The notes beneath the pieces are model-generated. The model saw only the letters and a program-made list of their open reading frames with translations. It was not told where the DNA came from and searched no databases. Below, piece by piece: positions 2 to 19,550 of a stretch of DNA of 47,534 bases (positions are counted from its first letter, which is position 1; every line of letters begins with the position of its first letter). This stretch comes from Candidatus Enterousia sp. (GTDB lineage: Bacteria > Pseudomonadota > Alphaproteobacteria > Rs-D84), in contig JAZTWE010000006.1 of NCBI GenBank assembly GCA_045635705.1, positions 1-47,534 of the forward strand, written 5' to 3'. Both the position numbers and the translations under genes were made by a program.

Positions 2-184
2 GGCTCACAGAACGACATGGCTACGATCCGACTTGTTGCCGCGTACTTGCAGGGCCAGGGTGTGGCCCAATCGCGTTTTGAAATAATCGGTATGGGTTCG
101 TCGAATCCAATTGCGTCCAACAGTACTGTTGATGGTCGTGCCCAAAACAGACGCGTTGAAATCAAGATTATTCCAAATAAATAA
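2..184 (+). CDS. OmpA-family (OmpA_C/MotB-like) peptidoglycan-binding protein, C-terminal fragment; 5' end outside window
   Basis: Frame 2 reads ...FEIIGMGSSNPIASNSTVDGRAQNRRVEIKIIPNK, then TAA at 182-184. The ...G-R-A-x-N-R-R-V-E-I ending is the classic OmpA C-terminal signature. Confidence 0.8.
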   Translation, partial: GSQNDMATIRLVAAYLQGQGVAQSRFEIIGMGSSNPIASNSTVDGRAQNRRVEIKIIPNK

Positions 185-1427: not shown

Positions 1428-2513
<1,086 letters not shown>

Positions 2514-15775: not shown

Positions 15776-15851
15776 GCCGGTGTAGCTCAGCTGGTAGAGC
15801 ATCTCATTCGTAATGAGGGGGCCGCAGGTTCAAGTCCTGCCACCGGCACCA
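15776..15851 (+). tRNA. tRNA-Thr (anticodon CGT), CCA encoded
   Basis: Cloverleaf: GCCGGTG / GCTC-AGCTGGTA-GAGC / TCTCA-TTCGTAA-TGAGG / GGGCC / GCAGG-TTCAAGT-CCTGC / CACCGGC-A-CCA. 76 nt. Confidence 0.9.
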
Positions 15852-15858
15852 CAAATAA

Positions 15859-15884
15859 ACCGCCCATTTGGGCGGTGTTTTTTA
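15859..15884. terminator. Terminator after tRNA-Thr (bidirectional)
   Basis: ACCGCCC-ATTT-GGGCGGT followed by a T-rich run. Confidence 0.75.
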
Positions 15885-16274
15885 TTTTTGATATTGGACA
15901 GTTTCCATAATCTTTTTCAAGACTTCTGATTTCATCGCTTCTTGTTTCTGTAATGCGTCTATTTTTTGTTTCAGTGTGAACAAAACACGACCAATTAAAA
16001 ATGGCTTGCGAATAATGCCTGTATCGCCATTTGGTGTTTTGACAACGATTTCTGTTGGAATGTCTTGGTTGCTGTATTGGTCGGCCTTGTAATTTGCCTT
16101 GATTGTAATACCATTAACCAAGAATTCGTTTTTATTGTTTGGGTTGATGATAATTGAATCAGAATTATCAACCAATGAAATAATTGAATTTGCAAATTCG
16201 CGATCTGCGCGTGGTGCGCGAACCAGTGCGTCATTCAAGATCAGCAAAATCGCGCGTGCGTTATTGTTTTTCAT
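15882..16274 (-). CDS. Hypothetical cytoplasmic protein
   Basis: 130-aa ORF with no signal peptide and no motif I recognise. Bounded by a terminator and an AT-rich divergent promoter region. Confidence 0.4.
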   Translation of the reverse strand: MKNNNARAILLILNDALVRAPRADREFANSIISLVDNSDSIIINPNNKNEFLVNGITIKANYKADQYSNQDIPTEIVVKTPNGDTGIIRKPFLIGRVLFTLKQKIDALQKQEAMKSEVLKKIMETVQYQK

Positions 16275-16414
16275 ATTAAAACTCCTTGTGTTTTATGATT
16301 TATTACATCTATTATTATAATACAATAATTACATTTGTCAATACTTGTTATAAATAAATTCATTTGCCTTATAGTACTTGCAATTTCGGGATTTTCATTG
16401 TAATCTGTGTGTCG

Positions 16415-16496
16415 ATGAAACAGGCAACAATAATTATTATTAGATAACGGTCGCACGCGCTTTGGCGGTGGCTGGGGCGCATACGCGCCCGTTTTT
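16415..16496 (+). promoter_or_regulatory. Candidate ileS attenuator: Ile-rich leader peptide plus intrinsic terminator
   Basis: ATG 16415 to TAA 16447 encodes MKQATIIIIR, with four consecutive Ile codons ATA ATT ATT ATT at 16430-16441. Hairpin GGGCGC-ATAC-GCGCCC (16475-16490) is followed by GTTTTT, 30 nt upstream of the ileS ATG. Confidence 0.45.
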
Positions 16497-16526
16497 AATA
16501 TAAAACACAAGACGGAGTATTAAACT

Positions 16527-19500
16527 ATGTCATATCCAAAAACAGACCCACGTGCTAATTTCCCAAAACTAGAACACAAGTTATTAGCATACTGGCGTGA
16601 AAATGATACATTCCATAAATCGTTGGATAAAACAAAGTCTGGACGACCATTCTCGTTCTTTGATGGTCCGCCATTTGCGAATGGTTTGCCACACTGGGGA
16701 CATTTGGGTGTGTCGGTTGTCAAAGATATGATTTCGCGTTTCCAGACAATGTCTGGGCATCATGTTAGACGTGAACTGGGCTGGGATTGCCATGGTTTGC
16801 CAGCGGAAAATTCCGTTGAAAAAAAGGTTGGCAAATCCGCCAAAGATATTGTTGCAAATGATGGTATTGCGGCATTTTGTGATATGTGTCGCAGCGATGT
16901 TATGACATATACAAATGAATGGAATGCCTTTATTTCGCGTATGGGTCGTTGGGTTGATATTGGCGATGGATATGGTTATAAAACAATGAACAAAGACTAT
17001 ATGGAATCCATGCTGTGGACATTAAAGTCTTTGTATGAAAAAGGGTTATTGTACAAAGATTACAGTGTCAATCCATTTGACTGGGTAAATGGAACGGTTG
17101 TATCTAATTCCGAAGCGTCCCAGGATTATCGTGAAATTGTTGATGATGCGGTAACGGTTTGGTTTGAACTGGAAAATGGCGATCGTGTAATTGCGTGGAC
17201 GACAACACCATGGACATTACCGGCTAATTCTGCATTGGCGGTAAATCCAAATATGATATACCTGCGCATGCAGGATGATGACGGTGCGGTTTATGTTGTT
17301 GCAGAAAGCCGCTTGAAGGCATATGAAAAACAATTTGCAAACGCAACGGAAATAGGGCGTATAACCGGGGCTGAATTGGCAGGCATGCATTATACGCCAT
17401 TGTTCCCATACTATGCGGGTCAGTCTGATTTATTGTTCCAGGTTATCCCAGCGGATTATGTATCTGATTCTGACGGTACAGGTATTGTTCATATTGCACC
17501 GGCCTATGGTGCCGACGACTTCTGGGCAGCAAAGAATATTGACCCAAAGTTTCCGGTTTTATTAAATGTTGATAATTATGGGAACTTTGATGAAACGGTA
17601 ACTGATTTTGCAGGTCAGAATATATTTGCTGCAACACCGGCGATATTGGATTGGTTAAAAACAAACGGTCGTTTGGTTAAGAAAGAACAATACAAACACA
17701 GTTATCCATTTGGTGACCGCAGCAAAGAAAAATTAATCTATCGTGCGACTGACTCTTGGTATATCGATGTGCCAAAGGTCAAAGACAAATTGATTGCAAA
17801 TAACGCAAAAGTTAATTGGACAAGTGCGGGTGAACGTTTCCGTTCATGGATTGAAAATGCGCGTCCGTGGTCAATTTCACGAAATCGTTTCTGGGGGATG
17901 CCATTGCCAATTTGGGAACGCGACGGCGAATACAAAGTATTTGGGTCAATCGCAGAACTGGAAGAATTCTTTGGGGTTACAATCGAAGATTTACATCGTC
18001 CAACATTGGACAGACTGGAAAAAGACGGTTGGAAACGTATCCCAGATGTACTGGATTGCTGGGTTGAATCGGGTTCTATGCCATGGGCATCGTTGCATTA
18101 TCCGTTTGAAAACAAAGAACGGTTTGAGGCAACTTTCCCCGCTGATTATATTATCGAAGGACAAGATCAAACACGTGGTTGGTTCTATGCGTTGATGGTT
18201 TTGGCGACAGCGCTATTTGACAAGCCGGCATTTATGGCGGTATCTGCAAATGGTATGATTGTTGATGAAAACAAGAAAAAGTTTTCGAAATCATTAAAGA
18301 ACTTTGTTAACCCAGAACAACAGATTGAACAATACGGTGCAGATGCCATCCGTCTGTTTGTGCTGGGGTCAAACTTTATGAAAGCAGAACCAGTTCCGGT
18401 TGATAAAGAAGGAAAAGTATTCATTGAATCAACAAAAACAATTCAAACACCACTGTGGAATGCGTATCACTTCTTTACACTTTACGCGAACGCGGGTGGT
18501 GTTGTTGCGCATGAAATGGCAACCCCGACAACTGCGCTGGATAAATATATCTTGGCTGAATTAAATGTCTTGATTGATGTTGTGAAAAATTCACTGGATG
18601 AATATAAGCCGGATGTTGCAATCAAAGAATTTGTTCGGTTCTTGGATATTTTGAATAACTGGTATATCCGTCGTGGTCGCGCACGTTTTTGGGACGAAGA
18701 ACAAGATGCGTTCGACACATTATACACTGTCCTGACGACATTTTGTCGTGTTTTGGCTCCATTTGCACCATTTGTATCAGAATACATTTATCGCAATTTA
18801 ACGGGGGCAGAATCCGTGCATCTAACAGATTTCCCTGTTGCGCAAAAATTTGATGCAAAAATTGTTGATGATATGCGTCGTGTACAGTCAATTGTTTCAA
18901 CTGGAAAACAGTTGCGCGAACAGTACAAATTGCGCAATCGTTTACCATTGGCAGATATGACAATTGCAGGTGCGAATTTAAGTGAATATGCCGACATTAT
19001 TCGTGACGAATTGAATGTAAAAAATATCCAATTTGTTGAAAATATTGATGATGTTGCAGATTCTTTTATTTATCTGATTACGCCACGGATTGGGGCGCGT
19101 TTGGGTGGTGCACTAAAAGAAATTATCCCAGCGGTTAAACGTGGTGATTATGATTTGGTTGGTGACAAATTGGTCGCAGCGGGTCACACATTAAATTCGG
19201 ATGAATTTGAAAATCGCCTGACTGTAAAGGATGGTATCACAGGTGCCGCATTACCTGATAATACCGCTGTTGTAGTATTGGATACAAATGTTACAGCGGA
19301 CTTGGTCGCCGAAGGGCTGGCAAACGATGCCCTGCGCTTTATCCAAGATACGCGCAAGGCTGCCGGCCTGGATGTATCCGACCGTATTGTTTTGTCGTAC
19401 GCGGGCGACCCTGCAATTGTCAGCGCAATTGACCAACACAAAAAACGCATCATGCACGAAGCGTTGATTGTTGAAATGGTTCCGGCTGACGGCGAATATT

Positions 19501-19550
19501 CGACCGAAATCGAAGGATATAACCTGAACATATCTGTAAAAAAAGCATAA
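16527..19550 (+). CDS. ileS: Isoleucyl-tRNA synthetase, type 2 (eukaryote-like) form
   Basis: 1007 aa. The start MSYPKTDPRANFPKLEHKLLAYWRENDTF and PFANGLPHWGHL (HIGH region) are typical of type-2 IleRS. KFSKS (KMSKS) is present; no C-terminal zinc-finger extension as in the E. coli type. GGAG lies upstream of the ATG. Confidence 0.93.
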   Translation: MSYPKTDPRANFPKLEHKLLAYWRENDTFHKSLDKTKSGRPFSFFDGPPFANGLPHWGHLGVSVVKDMISRFQTMSGHHVRRELGWDCHGLPAENSVEKKVGKSAKDIVANDGIAAFCDMCRSDVMTYTNEWNAFISRMGRWVDIGDGYGYKTMNKDYMESMLWTLKSLYEKGLLYKDYSVNPFDWVNGTVVSNSEASQDYREIVDDAVTVWFELENGDRVIAWTTTPWTLPANSALAVNPNMIYLRMQDDDGAVYVVAESRLKAYEKQFANATEIGRITGAELAGMHYTPLFPYYAGQSDLLFQVIPADYVSDSDGTGIVHIAPAYGADDFWAAKNIDPKFPVLLNVDNYGNFDETVTDFAGQNIFAATPAILDWLKTNGRLVKKEQYKHSYPFGDRSKEKLIYRATDSWYIDVPKVKDKLIANNAKVNWTSAGERFRSWIENARPWSISRNRFWGMPLPIWERDGEYKVFGSIAELEEFFGVTIEDLHRPTLDRLEKDGWKRIPDVLDCWVESGSMPWASLHYPFENKERFEATFPADYIIEGQDQTRGWFYALMVLATALFDKPAFMAVSANGMIVDENKKKFSKSLKNFVNPEQQIEQYGADAIRLFVLGSNFMKAEPVPVDKEGKVFIESTKTIQTPLWNAYHFFTLYANAGGVVAHEMATPTTALDKYILAELNVLIDVVKNSLDEYKPDVAIKEFVRFLDILNNWYIRRGRARFWDEEQDAFDTLYTVLTTFCRVLAPFAPFVSEYIYRNLTGAESVHLTDFPVAQKFDAKIVDDMRRVQSIVSTGKQLREQYKLRNRLPLADMTIAGANLSEYADIIRDELNVKNIQFVENIDDVADSFIYLITPRIGARLGGALKEIIPAVKRGDYDLVGDKLVAAGHTLNSDEFENRLTVKDGITGAALPDNTAVVVLDTNVTADLVAEGLANDALRFIQDTRKAAGLDVSDRIVLSYAGDPAIVSAIDQHKKRIMHEALIVEMVPADGEYSTEIEGYNLNISVKKA

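What the first reader, a model, noticed from the sequence alone, without database searches (positions are those of the whole stretch)
16378..16526. Possible leader-peptide attenuator for ileS: MKQATIIIIR followed by an intrinsic terminator
**What is seen.**
- Directly upstream of ileS there is a 10-codon ORF (16415-16447) containing four consecutive Ile codons (ATA ATT ATT ATT) preceded by Thr.
- 27 nt later lies a GC-rich hairpin GGGCGC-ATAC-GCGCCC plus GTTTTT (16475-16496).
- The ileS SD and ATG (16527) follow.
- A plausible promoter, TTGCAA-N17-TAATCT, lies at 16378-16406.

**Background.** Leader-peptide attenuation is established for amino-acid operons and for pheST in E. coli. I am not aware of it for ileS in this kind of organism.

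**Caveats.**
- The Ile run sits in low-complexity AT-rich DNA.
- The uORF has no SD; it may be nearly leaderless from that promoter.
- I could not find a convincing antiterminator helix by eye.
Basis: partly seen in the sequence, partly recalled or inferred. Interest (0 to 1): 0.6.

Follow-up and report, generated by a model that had tools for sequence, protein, structure and literature searches.

The report
Isoleucine leader-peptide attenuator before ileS
A ten-codon mini-gene with four isoleucine codons, followed by three competing RNA hairpins ending in a transcription stop, precedes the isoleucyl-tRNA synthetase gene; it is a well-conserved new example of a textbook ribosome-operated switch, not a new kind of device.

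Summary

The antiterminator exists. GCGCUUUGGC (16457-16466) pairs with GCUGGGGCGC (16471-16480). This helix excludes both the hairpin just after the mini-ORF (16448-16474) and the terminator (16475-16490 plus U-tract).

**Conservation.**
- A covariance model of the element hits once per genome in 140 of 151 genomes of the family (Candidatus Enterousia and relatives, uncultured gut Alphaproteobacteria).
- In 81 of 84 loci it lies 8-123 nt before ileS.
- All 82 distinct copies keep an 8-11 codon frame with 3-5 consecutive Ile codons.
- Ile codon positions 1-2 are fixed, and position 3 varies among A/T/C.
- All three helices are kept, with compensatory changes.
- A sigma-70-type promoter ends 7-8 nt before the ATG in most loci, so the mRNA is probably leaderless.

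**Reading.** This is an Ile-tRNA-sensing, ribosome-mediated transcription attenuator of ileS.

**What is not settled.** The Ile codons lie upstream of the first hairpin rather than inside it. The direction of the response (starvation gives read-through) is therefore inferred, not shown.

**Prior knowledge.** Published precedent is thin: a Caulobacter "ileS leader CDS" is named but has no described mechanism. This scan already found the same element in other genomes.

The parts
16378..16406 (+). Sigma-70-type promoter: -35 TTGCAA (16378-16383), 17-nt spacer, -10 TAATCT (16401-16406). The predicted start is at or 1-2 nt before the A of the uORF ATG.
   Evidence: Sequence. In 51 of 84 related loci a TAnnnT hexamer ends 7-8 nt before the uORF ATG, in nearly all of these with a -35 (TTGAxx/TTGCxx/TGGAAA) 17 nt upstream of it. 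Most of the 11 further loci that my TAnnnT scan missed carry TATAAA at about the same distance. The start site itself is not mapped.
16415..16447 (+). Leader peptide ORF MKQATIIIIR* (10 codons plus stop), with no Shine-Dalgarno sequence; probably leaderless.
   Evidence: All 82 distinct homologous copies have an 8-11 codon frame. Starts are ATG in 80 and GTG in 2; stops are TAA in 80 and TAG in 2. N-terminal codons vary freely and indels come in multiples of three.
16430..16441 (+). Regulatory run of four Ile codons, ATA ATT ATT ATT.
   Evidence: The Ile run is 4 codons long in 69 copies, 3 in 10 and 5 in 3. Codon use in the run is ATT 195, ATA 107, ATC 19. The conservation pattern has period 3. 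The distance from the last Ile codon to the switch is fixed at 17-18 nt in 77 of 82 copies.
16448..16474 (+). Hairpin 1, the anti-antiterminator (the '1:2' helix): CGGUCGC-A-CGC / loop GCUUUG / GCG-GUGGCUG.
   Evidence: MFE fold. Energy is -15.3 kcal/mol. Hairpin 1 and the terminator were counted together: 90.3% of cells paired, 9 of 14 pairs with compensatory change, 0 of 500 shuffles as high (the alignment was fitted to this structure).
16457..16480 (+). Antiterminator (the '2:3' helix). The 5' arm GCGCUUUGGC (16457-16466) pairs with the 3' arm GCUGGGGCGC (16471-16480). It uses the loop and inner stem of hairpin 1 and the whole 5' arm of the terminator.
   Evidence: Predicted by RNAalifold. 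It is the MFE of the transcript lacking the terminator's 3' arm in all 24 species tested. 92.6% of cells are paired against at most 67% in slid controls, and 5 of 10 pairs have compensatory change with 0 of 500 shuffles as high. Three-way covariation is seen in L079 and L021.
16475..16496 (+). Intrinsic terminator (the '3:4' helix): GGGCGC-AUAC-GCGCCC, then G UUUUU.
   Evidence: Energy is -13.3 kcal/mol. 98.8% of cells are paired, 4 of 6 pairs have compensatory change, and the loop is variable.
16515..19550 (+). ileS: Shine-Dalgarno GGAG (16515-16518) and coding sequence 16527-19550 (type-2 IleRS, 1007 aa). No room or signal for a separate promoter after the terminator.
   Evidence: Pfam. In 81 of 84 loci ileS starts 8-123 nt after the element on the same strand; the gap is 8-56 nt in 80 of them.

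Best explanation
This is a ribosome-mediated (leader-peptide) transcription attenuator that couples ileS transcription to the supply of charged tRNA-Ile, the product of IleRS itself.

**Proposed sequence of events.**
1. Transcription starts at or next to the A of the mini-ORF's ATG, giving a leaderless mRNA.
2. A 70S ribosome translates MKQATIIIIR while RNA polymerase synthesises the next 50 nt.
3. That stretch can form three mutually exclusive helices: hairpin 1 (16448-16474), the antiterminator (16457-16466 with 16471-16480) and the terminator (16475-16490 plus U-tract).
4. With no ribosome on the 3' end of the mini-ORF, hairpin 1 folds first. This locks away the antiterminator's 5' arm, so the terminator forms and ileS is not transcribed.
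5. If a ribosome still occupies the last codons of the mini-ORF when the G-rich segment 16471-16480 emerges, hairpin 1 is melted. The antiterminator then forms and polymerase reads through into ileS.
6. The four Ile codons make the ribosome's arrival and residence time depend on Ile-tRNA-Ile. The ATA codon is read by the lysidine tRNA-Ile2, and ATT by tRNA-Ile(GAU).
7. I infer that a shortage of charged tRNA-Ile increases read-through, which gives negative feedback on IleRS.

**Shown here.**
- The conserved, translated-looking Ile-run ORF.
- The three competing helices and their covariation.
- The fixed spacing between the Ile run and the switch.
- The promoter spacing.
- The exclusive association with ileS.

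**Inferred.**
- Translation of the ORF.
- The transcription start.
- Real termination at 16496.
- The direction of the response.
For: **(1) Coding signature.**
- All 82 distinct copies keep the frame, with 3-5 consecutive Ile codons.
- Positions 1-2 of the Ile codons are 95-100% conserved. Position 3 varies A/T/C and is never G.
- N-terminal residues vary freely.

**(2) Distribution.**
- Model R1 hits once per genome in 140 of 151 family genomes, 15 of 18 genera.
- It hits 79 of 80 named Enterousia-like loci.
- ileS follows in 81 of 84 loci.
- A crude scan found no other such leader in this genome.

**(3) Switch.**
- The antiterminator is found by RNAalifold.
- It is the MFE before segment 4 exists in 24 of 24 species.
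- It is 92.6% paired, with 5 of 10 pairs compensatory.
- Hairpin 1 plus terminator are 90.3% paired, with 9 of 14 pairs compensatory.
- Hairpin 1's loop GCUUUG is almost invariant while the terminator loop varies freely. The loop's second role as the antiterminator arm explains this.

**(4) Kinetics and energetics in the window.**
- Hairpin 1 is -15.3 kcal/mol and the antiterminator about -15.8 kcal/mol; hairpin 1 emerges 6 nt earlier.
- The direct refolding barrier is about 18.6 kcal/mol without a ribosome. It falls to 5-8 kcal/mol once the 5' arm is masked to +38..+42.
- Hairpin 1 plus terminator (-28.6 kcal/mol) is the final MFE.

**(5) Position dependence.** The free-energy difference G(antiterminator) minus G(terminator), averaged over 24 species, depends on how far the RNA is masked:
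- +2.7 kcal/mol with nothing masked.
- About +0.1 when masked through stop+9/10.
- +3.5 to +6.2 when masked through stop+12..14.

**(6) Spacing and promoter.**
- The spacing from Ile run to switch is fixed at 17-18 nt in 77 of 82 copies.
- The -10 hexamer ends 7-8 nt before the ATG in at least 51 of 84 loci.

**(7) ATA decoding.** A TilS-family gene is present and three tRNA(CAU) genes are found, so ATA can be decoded by a separate Ile isoacceptor.
Against: - **No experimental data.** There is no transcription start, no 3'-end mapping and no ribosome profiling.
- **The geometry differs from trp and his leaders.**
  - The last Ile codon starts 13-14 nt before the core of hairpin 1, and 9 nt before its base in the window.
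  - A ribosome waiting with that codon in its A site, excluding pairing for about 8-13 nt downstream, melts at most the lower stem.
  - The position most favourable to the antiterminator (leading edge at +40/41) corresponds to a ribosome with the Lys or stop codon in the A site.
  - The sign of the response therefore depends on timing assumptions and is not derivable from sequence.
- **The stop codon position varies** (+3 nt in 6 copies, +6 in 74 copies and +9 in 1 copy from the last Ile codon).
- **Covariation in the antiterminator is modest** because its arms are nearly invariant.
- **The A3 alignment was fitted to hairpin 1 plus terminator.** Those counts therefore lean towards that structure.
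Confidence: 0.8

Rival explanations
1. Same parts, opposite sign: a translation-coupling sensor.
- Read-through needs a ribosome that has reached the stop codon in step with polymerase. That ribosome melts hairpin 1 and leaves the antiterminator free.
- A ribosome held up on the Ile codons lets hairpin 1 and the terminator form.
- Ile-tRNA shortage would then lower ileS transcription.
For: - Geometry: with an exclusion distance of A+8..10, a ribosome with the stop codon in the A site puts its edge at +39..41. That is exactly the optimum for the antiterminator.
- A ribosome with the last Ile codon in the A site leaves hairpin 1 almost intact.
Against: - It would create positive feedback on an essential enzyme: less IleRS gives less charged tRNA, which gives still less IleRS. 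This is opposite to every characterised aaRS control (T-box, pheST, thrS; general knowledge).
- A pure coupling sensor would not need Ile codons, yet the run of Ile codons is the most conserved feature of the ORF.
- The stop position is not fixed, whereas the Ile-run position is.
Confidence: 0.12
2. The RNA is a ligand-, tRNA- or protein-binding riboswitch, and the mini-ORF is incidental. Candidates are a degenerate T-box or an IleRS-binding operator like the one at thrS.
For: - The 3' arm of hairpin 1 reads GGUGGCU, reminiscent of the T-box core.
- The same genome has a T-box-like leader before aspS.
Against: - No Rfam family matches 16100-16700, even at E <= 10.
- There is no Stem I or specifier loop.
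- The UGG of the would-be bulge is not conserved across genera; GUUG, AUUG, UAAG and GACU occur at those columns.
- tRNA-Ile would need UGGU, not UGGC (general knowledge).
- The frame, start, stop and synonymous Ile codon changes are conserved, and an untranslated RNA does not explain that.
Confidence: 0.04
3. The mini-ORF encodes a functional hydrophobic micropeptide, or the hairpin is merely the terminator of the upstream transcription unit (tRNA-Thr), with ileS expressed from elsewhere.
For: - In 14 of 84 loci tRNA-Thr(CGU) lies directly upstream of the element.
- Leader peptides can have functions in trans, for example peTrpL in Sinorhizobium (PMC7298713, listed).
Against: - Only the Ile run is conserved in the peptide.
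- Most loci have their own promoter abutting the ATG.
- In the window tRNA-Thr has its own terminator at 15859-15876, and a divergent gene intervenes.
- The 8-56 nt between terminator and ileS in 80 of 84 loci leave no room for a promoter.
- A conserved antiterminator has no role in a plain terminator.
Confidence: 0.04

Closest known systems
E. coli pheM-pheST attenuator (leader peptide with Phe codons upstream of phenylalanyl-tRNA synthetase)
   Same: - A short leader ORF rich in the cognate codon, followed by alternative hairpins and an intrinsic terminator.
- It controls an aminoacyl-tRNA synthetase gene, so the enzyme's own product (charged tRNA) is the signal.
   Different: - No sequence relationship.
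- The target here is ileS and the codons are Ile.
- The ORF is 10 codons and the whole device is about 82 nt.
- The mRNA is probably leaderless.
- The regulatory codons lie upstream of the first hairpin rather than inside it.
Classical amino-acid operon attenuators (trpL, hisL, leuL, ilvL, thrL of enterobacteria; Yanofsky 1981)
   Same: - Three mutually exclusive helices (1:2, 2:3, 3:4).
- A run of regulatory codons.
- An intrinsic terminator.
   Different: - It regulates a synthetase gene, not a biosynthetic operon.
- No Rfam leader family matches.
- It is much more compact.
- Segment 1 begins only after the stop codon.
'ileS leader CDS' CCNA_03934 of Caulobacter crescentus (Schrader et al. 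2014, PMC4117421)
   Same: - A small translated ORF upstream of ileS in an alphaproteobacterium.
- It was detected by ribosome profiling and named as a leader.
   Different: - The paper uses it only as a control and gives no mechanism.
- Caulobacter ileS is 969 aa and lies upstream of lspA, so it looks like type 1. Homology of the leaders is untested.
Leaderless poly-cysteine short ORFs of mycobacteria (bioRxiv 10.1101/834739, listed)
   Same: A leaderless mRNA that begins with a short ORF carrying a run of one codon, and that attenuates the downstream genes in response to that amino acid.
   Different: - Cysteine and Actinobacteria, and different downstream genes.
- I did not read that paper's mechanism in detail.
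T-box riboswitches upstream of ileS (Firmicutes; translational T-boxes of Actinobacteria, PMC1262725)
   Same: - The same gene.
- The same physiological signal, tRNA-Ile charging.
- Terminator/antiterminator logic in Firmicutes.
   Different: T-boxes bind tRNA directly and need no translation. The T-box features are absent here.

Membership tests
Ribosome-mediated (leader-peptide) transcription attenuators | A short ORF upstream of the regulated gene carrying a cluster of codons for the cognate amino acid. | tested here: met
   MKQATIIIIR* at 16415-16447. All 82 distinct homologues keep a run of 3-5 Ile codons, with a period-3 conservation pattern.
Ribosome-mediated (leader-peptide) transcription attenuators | An intrinsic terminator between the leader ORF and the structural gene, with no promoter after it. 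| tested here: met
   A 6-bp G+C stem plus U5 at 16475-16496. The helix is 98.8% paired across 84 sequences. ileS starts 8-56 nt after the element in 80 of 84 loci. Actual termination was not measured.
Ribosome-mediated (leader-peptide) transcription attenuators | An antiterminator helix mutually exclusive with the terminator. | tested here: met
   16457-16466 pairs with 16471-16480. 92.6% of cells are paired against at most 67% in slid controls, and 5 of 10 pairs are compensatory. It is the MFE before segment 4 in 24 of 24 species.
Ribosome-mediated (leader-peptide) transcription attenuators | An upstream helix (1:2) that pre-empts the antiterminator and whose 5' strand is covered by a ribosome stalled at the regulatory codons. 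| tested here: inconclusive
   Hairpin 1 exists, is conserved and excludes the antiterminator. However, its core starts 13-14 nt after the first base of the last Ile codon. A ribosome stalled there covers only its base. Full masking needs the A site on the Lys or stop codon.
Ribosome-mediated (leader-peptide) transcription attenuators | The leader ORF is translated, and read-through rises when the cognate charged tRNA is scarce. | not testable with these tools
Translation is inferred from the coding-type conservation only.
T-box riboswitch (RF00230) | Stem I with a specifier loop, the conserved T-box sequence, and a UGGN bulge that pairs with the tRNA 3' end. | tested here: not met
   No RF00230 hit in 16100-16700 at E <= 10. 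The only hit in the genome is upstream of aspS. UGG is not conserved at the candidate bulge across genera.
Rfam amino-acid leader families (Leu, His, Thr, Trp leaders and others) | A match to the curated covariance model. | tested here: not met
   cmscan of all 4227 families over 16100-16700 gave three weak matches, all upstream of the leader (16101-16238) and far below their gathering scores; none is an amino-acid leader family.

The most novel reading that the evidence does not exclude
The device may be a timer rather than a classical stall-and-mask attenuator.
- The Ile codons sit upstream of the RNA switch and only delay the ribosome.
- The antiterminator forms only if the ribosome's leading edge is at about +40/41 (A site on the last two positions of the ORF) at the moment the G-rich strand emerges.
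- That would give a band-pass response: off when replete, on at moderate shortage, off again at severe starvation.
- The conserved first codon ATA, alongside ATT/ATC, would make the leader report on both Ile isoacceptors, and so also on lysidine formation by TilS.
- Together with the different Ile-rich leaders seen before ileS in other alphaproteobacterial families, this would mean that ribosome-based sensing has been invented repeatedly for this one synthetase gene.
Probability: 0.3. Interest if true: 0.55.

Novelty: new member of a known kind. Interest (0 to 1): 0.4.

Why it matters
- **Regulation of the gene.** It shows how uncultured, reduced-genome gut Alphaproteobacteria (Candidatus Enterousia and relatives, genomes of about 0.8-1 Mb) regulate an essential synthetase without a T-box or a protein regulator. 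The whole device is 82 nt and uses the translating ribosome as the sensor.
- **Extension of a known mechanism.** Among aminoacyl-tRNA synthetases, leader-peptide attenuation is experimentally established mainly for E. coli pheST. This extends it to ileS, and to what is probably a leaderless transcript.
- **A compact test system.**
  - With 82 natural sequence variants it could be used to ask how ribosome position is converted into an RNA folding decision.
  - The regulatory codons lie outside the first hairpin here, so it tests the classical model at its limits.
- **Annotation.** The covariance model built here could annotate the element in several hundred metagenome-assembled genomes.

Tried and rejected
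- **Rfam scan of the leader.** Nothing relevant was found, so membership of a T-box or a known leader family is rejected.
- **T-box-like reading of GGUGGCU.** Rejected because UGG is not conserved across genera and there is no Stem I.
- **A long-range A-U helix between the Ile codons and the U-tract / AAUAU.**
  - I considered it by eye. L011 and L019 looked compensatory.
  - I dropped it because the pairing is not consistent in other species (for example L020, L023).
  - The U-tract is inside the polymerase at the moment of decision.
- **Looking for 2:3 pairing by eye among the GCGC motifs.** This failed; RNAalifold found the helix.
- **Equilibrium masking analysis.** In the window the terminator state is favoured thermodynamically at every mask, so control must be kinetic.
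- **Direct-path barrier estimates.** These are crude because the saddle equals the open chain.
- **Scan of the whole genome for other codon-run leaders followed by terminators.** Only ileS was found. One Asn-rich candidate is the end of an upstream gene lying before an outer-membrane protein gene.
- **Sampling 40 other alphaproteobacterial families.**
  - Clear Ile-rich uORFs with terminator-like hairpins were seen in two further families with type-2 ileS (L103, L110).
  - One type-2 locus (L105) has an Ile-Ile-Pro-stop ORF end inside a terminator-like hairpin, seen by eye only.
  - Nothing convincing was seen before type-1 ileS.
- **The look-up of sequencing runs was closed.** No transcript evidence could be obtained.
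- **Literature.** There is no published mechanism for an ileS leader peptide; only the Caulobacter annotation exists.
Full report
**1. The observation**

- TTGCAA-N17-TAATCT at 16378-16406.
- The ORF ATG AAA CAG GCA ACA ATA ATT ATT ATT AGA TAA (MKQATIIIIR*) at 16415-16447.
- The hairpin GGGCGC-AUAC-GCGCCC at 16475-16490, followed by G UUUUU to 16496.
- GGAG at 16515-16518 and the ileS ATG at 16527.

The downstream ORF (16527-19550, 1007 aa) matches tRNA-synt_1 (2e-114), Anticodon_1 and DUF5915. I read this as a type-2 isoleucyl-tRNA synthetase.

The consensus scan reports the terminator. The 131-nt leader folds better than shuffles, z = -2.69.

The genome is 0.81 Mb, about 80% complete, with 44.5% G+C. 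Ile makes up 6.6% of codons, split ATT 56%, ATC 25% and ATA 19%. The Ile run is therefore not background low-complexity DNA.

**2. What organism**

The closest ileS loci in public genomes carry record titles 'MAG: Candidatus Enterousia sp.' or 'Alphaproteobacteria bacterium'. They come from sheep, goat, yak, deer, buffalo and mouse gut.

**3. Comparative test**

I extracted the region upstream of ileS in 24 other species of the genus, whose IleRS N-termini are 66-87% identical to the window's.
- All 24 have an in-frame mini-ORF with ATA ATT ATT ATT or a close variant. It is followed by a G+C-rich segment and a terminator.
- Six genomes of a sister family (g3) have a short intergenic region with no such leader.

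A covariance model (R1) was built from the 24 leaders, with hairpin 1 and the terminator as its structure.
- It hits exactly once per genome in 140 of 151 genomes sampled from the family. That is 107 of 108 in the genus and 15 of 18 genera.
- It hits 79 of 80 named loci.
- In 81 of 84 aligned loci ileS begins 8-123 nt after the element on the same strand (8-56 nt in 80 of them). For the other three the short flank gave no hit.

**4. The mini-ORF behaves as coding sequence**

Among 82 distinct copies:

| Feature | Counts |
|---|---|
| Start codon | ATG 80, GTG 2 |
| Stop codon | TAA 80, TAG 2 |
| Length (codons) | 10 in 69, 9 in 9, 11 in 3, 8 in 1 |
| Longest Ile run | 4 in 69, 3 in 10, 5 in 3 |
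| Ile codons in the run | ATT 195, ATA 107, ATC 19 |

- Residues 2-5 vary freely (K/N/Q/T/A/R/Y/F and others), and length changes are whole codons.
- Column by column, the first two positions of each Ile codon are 95-100% conserved. Third positions vary, for example T48/A31/C2 in the fourth codon, and are never G. This is the pattern expected if the codons' meaning is under selection, not the RNA sequence.
- No other leader of this type was found in the genome by a crude scan.

**5. The switch**

RNAalifold on the 24 leaders proposes one.

In window numbering, +1 is the A of the uORF ATG at 16415. G43-C52 (16457-16466, GCGCUUUGGC) pairs with G57-C66 (16471-16480, GCUGGGGCGC). There are five G-C/C-G pairs at the outer end, four G-U pairs, then G51-C58 and C52-G57 closing the loop.

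This helix overlaps both neighbours, so the three helices are mutually exclusive:
- It takes the inner stem and the loop of hairpin 1 (C34-G60, 16448-16474).
- It takes the entire 5' arm of the terminator (G61-C66).

On the 84-sequence alignment A3:

| Measure | Antiterminator | Hairpin 1 + terminator |
|---|---|---|
| Cells forming standard pairs | 92.6% (at most 67% with partners slid by 1-3 columns) | 90.3% |
| Pairs with compensatory change | 5 of 10 | 9 of 14 |
| Shuffles reaching that number | 0 of 500 | 0 of 500 |
| Covariation score | reached by 2 of 500 shuffles | reached by 0 of 500 shuffles |

Two caveats apply:
- A3 was fitted to hairpin 1 plus terminator.
- Relatedness inflates shuffle tests.

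Two further observations argue for the antiterminator:
- There are three-way changes. In L079, segment 2 has C>U, segment 3 has G>A and segment 4 has C>U. In L021, UGCGC>UACGC, GCGC>GCGU and GCGCC>ACGCC.
- Hairpin 1's loop GCUUUG is almost invariant. The terminator's loop varies freely (AUAC, AUGG, GUUU, ACAG, AUAUG and others).

**6. Energetics in the window**

| Structure | Energy (kcal/mol) |
|---|---|
| Hairpin 1 | -15.3 |
| Antiterminator | about -15.8 |
| Terminator | -13.3 |
| Hairpin 1 + terminator | -28.6 |

- As the chain grows, hairpin 1 is the MFE once +58..+64 has emerged. The antiterminator is the MFE from +66 to +72. Hairpin 1 plus terminator is the MFE from +74 on.
- In all 24 species the antiterminator is the MFE of the transcript that still lacks the terminator's 3' arm.
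- Hairpin 1 forms first. The direct refolding barrier to the antiterminator is about 18.6 kcal/mol. An untranslated leader should therefore go on to terminate.
- Masking the 5' arm to +38..+42 lowers the remnant of hairpin 1 to -5.1..-1.9 kcal/mol and the barrier to 5-8 kcal/mol.
- G(antiterminator) minus G(terminator), averaged over 24 species, depends on the masked length:

| RNA masked through | Mean difference (kcal/mol) |
|---|---|
| nothing | +2.7 |
| stop+9/10 | about +0.1 |
| stop+12..14 | +3.5 to +6.2 |

The switch is thus sensitive to a shift of one codon in ribosome position.

**7. Where the ribosome has to be: the open point**

- The distance from the first base of the last Ile codon to the first invariant antiterminator pair is 17-18 nt in 77 of 82 copies.
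- The distance from that base to the core of hairpin 1 is 13-14 nt in 78 of 82 copies.
- The stop codon is not fixed. It lies +6 nt from the last Ile codon in 74 copies, +3 in 6 and +9 in 1.
- So the Ile run, not the stop, is the geometric reference.

The position favourable to the antiterminator depends on the distance over which a ribosome is assumed to exclude pairing. Toeprints, footprints and frameshift spacers give a range of roughly A+8 to A+13 (general knowledge).

| Assumed exclusion | A-site codon that puts the leading edge at +40/41 |
|---|---|
| A+9/10 | stop codon |
| A+12/13 | Lys codon |
| A+15/16 | last Ile codon |

- Unlike trpL, where the Trp codons lie inside segment 1, a ribosome waiting at the last Ile codon melts at most the base of hairpin 1.
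- I therefore favour a timing reading. Slow decoding of four successive Ile codons keeps the ribosome on the 3' end of the ORF when the G-rich strand emerges. A fast ribosome has already left, so hairpin 1 and the terminator form.
- The sign (shortage gives read-through) rests on two arguments. One is analogy with all known synthetase controls. The other is that the opposite sign would be a runaway positive feedback. It is not shown here.

**8. Promoter and 5' end**

- In 51 of 84 loci a TAnnnT hexamer ends 7-8 nt before the uORF ATG. Nearly all of these have a -35 (TTGAxx/TTGCxx/TGGAAA) 17 nt upstream of it. Several are perfect TTGACA-N16-TATAAT.
- Most of the 11 loci that my TAnnnT scan missed have TATAAA at about the same distance.
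- A start 7-8 nt after the -10 falls on or next to the A of the ATG. This fits the lack of a Shine-Dalgarno sequence, so the mRNA is probably leaderless.
- In 14 loci tRNA-Thr(CGU) lies directly upstream. A few of these also have their own promoter.
- In the window tRNA-Thr is at 15776-15851 with its own terminator at 15859-15876. A divergent 130-aa ORF (15882-16274, minus strand) has been inserted between it and the leader.

**9. Isoacceptors**

- The first Ile codon is ATA in 76 of 82 copies, and the fourth is often ATA outside the genus.
- ATA needs the lysidine-modified tRNA-Ile2. A TilS-family gene is present and three tRNA(CAU) genes are found.
- tRNA-Ile(GAU) was not found in this 80%-complete assembly.
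- That the leader samples both isoacceptors is an inference.

**10. Rivals rejected**

- *T-box or other riboswitch:* no Rfam match, no Stem I, UGG not conserved, and the coding signature is left unexplained.
- *Plain terminator of tRNA-Thr plus a chance ORF:* excluded by the conservation, the dedicated promoter and the antiterminator.
- *Micropeptide:* only the Ile run is conserved.

**11. Known relatives and novelty**

- The mechanism is the textbook one (Yanofsky 1981).
- Its closest functional analogue is the pheM-pheST attenuator of E. coli.
[quoted passage not shown] It was seen by ribosome profiling and used as a control, with no mechanism given (PMC4117421).
- The other ileS controls in the library are T-boxes in Firmicutes and Actinobacteria (PMC1262725).
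- Leaderless codon-run uORF attenuators are described for cysteine in mycobacteria (bioRxiv 10.1101/834739).
- This scan has already reported the same element from other Enterousia-like genomes, with the same reading. Other Ile-rich ileS leaders were noted in Alphaproteobacteria and CPR bacteria. My analysis was made independently before I read those notes, and it agrees with them.
- I file it as a new member of a known kind.

**12. Limits**

- No transcript or ribosome data could be consulted.
- E-values of R1 are rough.
- Related genomes are not independent.
- The barrier estimates are crude.

Noticed in passing
G000 contig C11:16423-16459 (-), locus L001 about 1480-1640 (-); also L143, L144, L147: A divergent T-box-like leader lies upstream of aspS. 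It has the core AGGGUGGCACCGCG, and UGGC fits the G73 of tRNA-Asp. GAC triplets sit in a possible specifier region. Sub-threshold RF00230 hits (20-90 bits; mostly one, up to three, per genome) occur in 27 of 41 genomes of the order, and lie directly before aspS in 3 of 6 loci checked. As far as I know, T-boxes are not usually reported from Alphaproteobacteria.
   Followed up: partly
L035, L039 (family f6); L103, L105, L110 (other alphaproteobacterial families with type-2 ileS): Different Ile-rich mini-ORFs precede ileS elsewhere. L035 has MFQINQEIIFRIPVWGN* and L039 has MFNQKIIYRIPCGGQ*, each with a CCCC..GGGG hairpin inside the ORF. L103 has MSDIRSISIIISIIIP*, whose stop lies inside a terminator-like hairpin. 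L105 has an ORF ending Ile-Ile-Pro-stop inside a similar hairpin (seen by eye). L110 has MKYLKINSVIIIKI* followed by a two-helix antiterminator/terminator switch. This suggests repeated invention of Ile leaders for this gene.
   Followed up: partly
window 15882-16341 (-): A 130-aa ORF with no Pfam match has a perfect consensus promoter, TTGACA-N16-TATAAT (16341..16314, minus strand). It is wedged between tRNA-Thr(CGU) (15776-15851) and the ileS leader. In 14 of 84 relatives the tRNA directly abuts the leader, so this gene looks like an insertion.
   Followed up: no
window 15859-15876: A perfectly palindromic hairpin ACCGCCC-AUUU-GGGCGGU lies just after tRNA-Thr. It scores as a terminator on both strands and would serve both tRNA-Thr and the convergent 130-aa ORF.
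   Followed up: no
A3 alignment, columns 19-30 (window 16430-16441): The first Ile codon of the run is ATA in 76 of 82 copies, although ATA is the rarest Ile codon in the genome's genes (19%). Outside the genus the fourth codon is usually ATA as well.
   Followed up: partly
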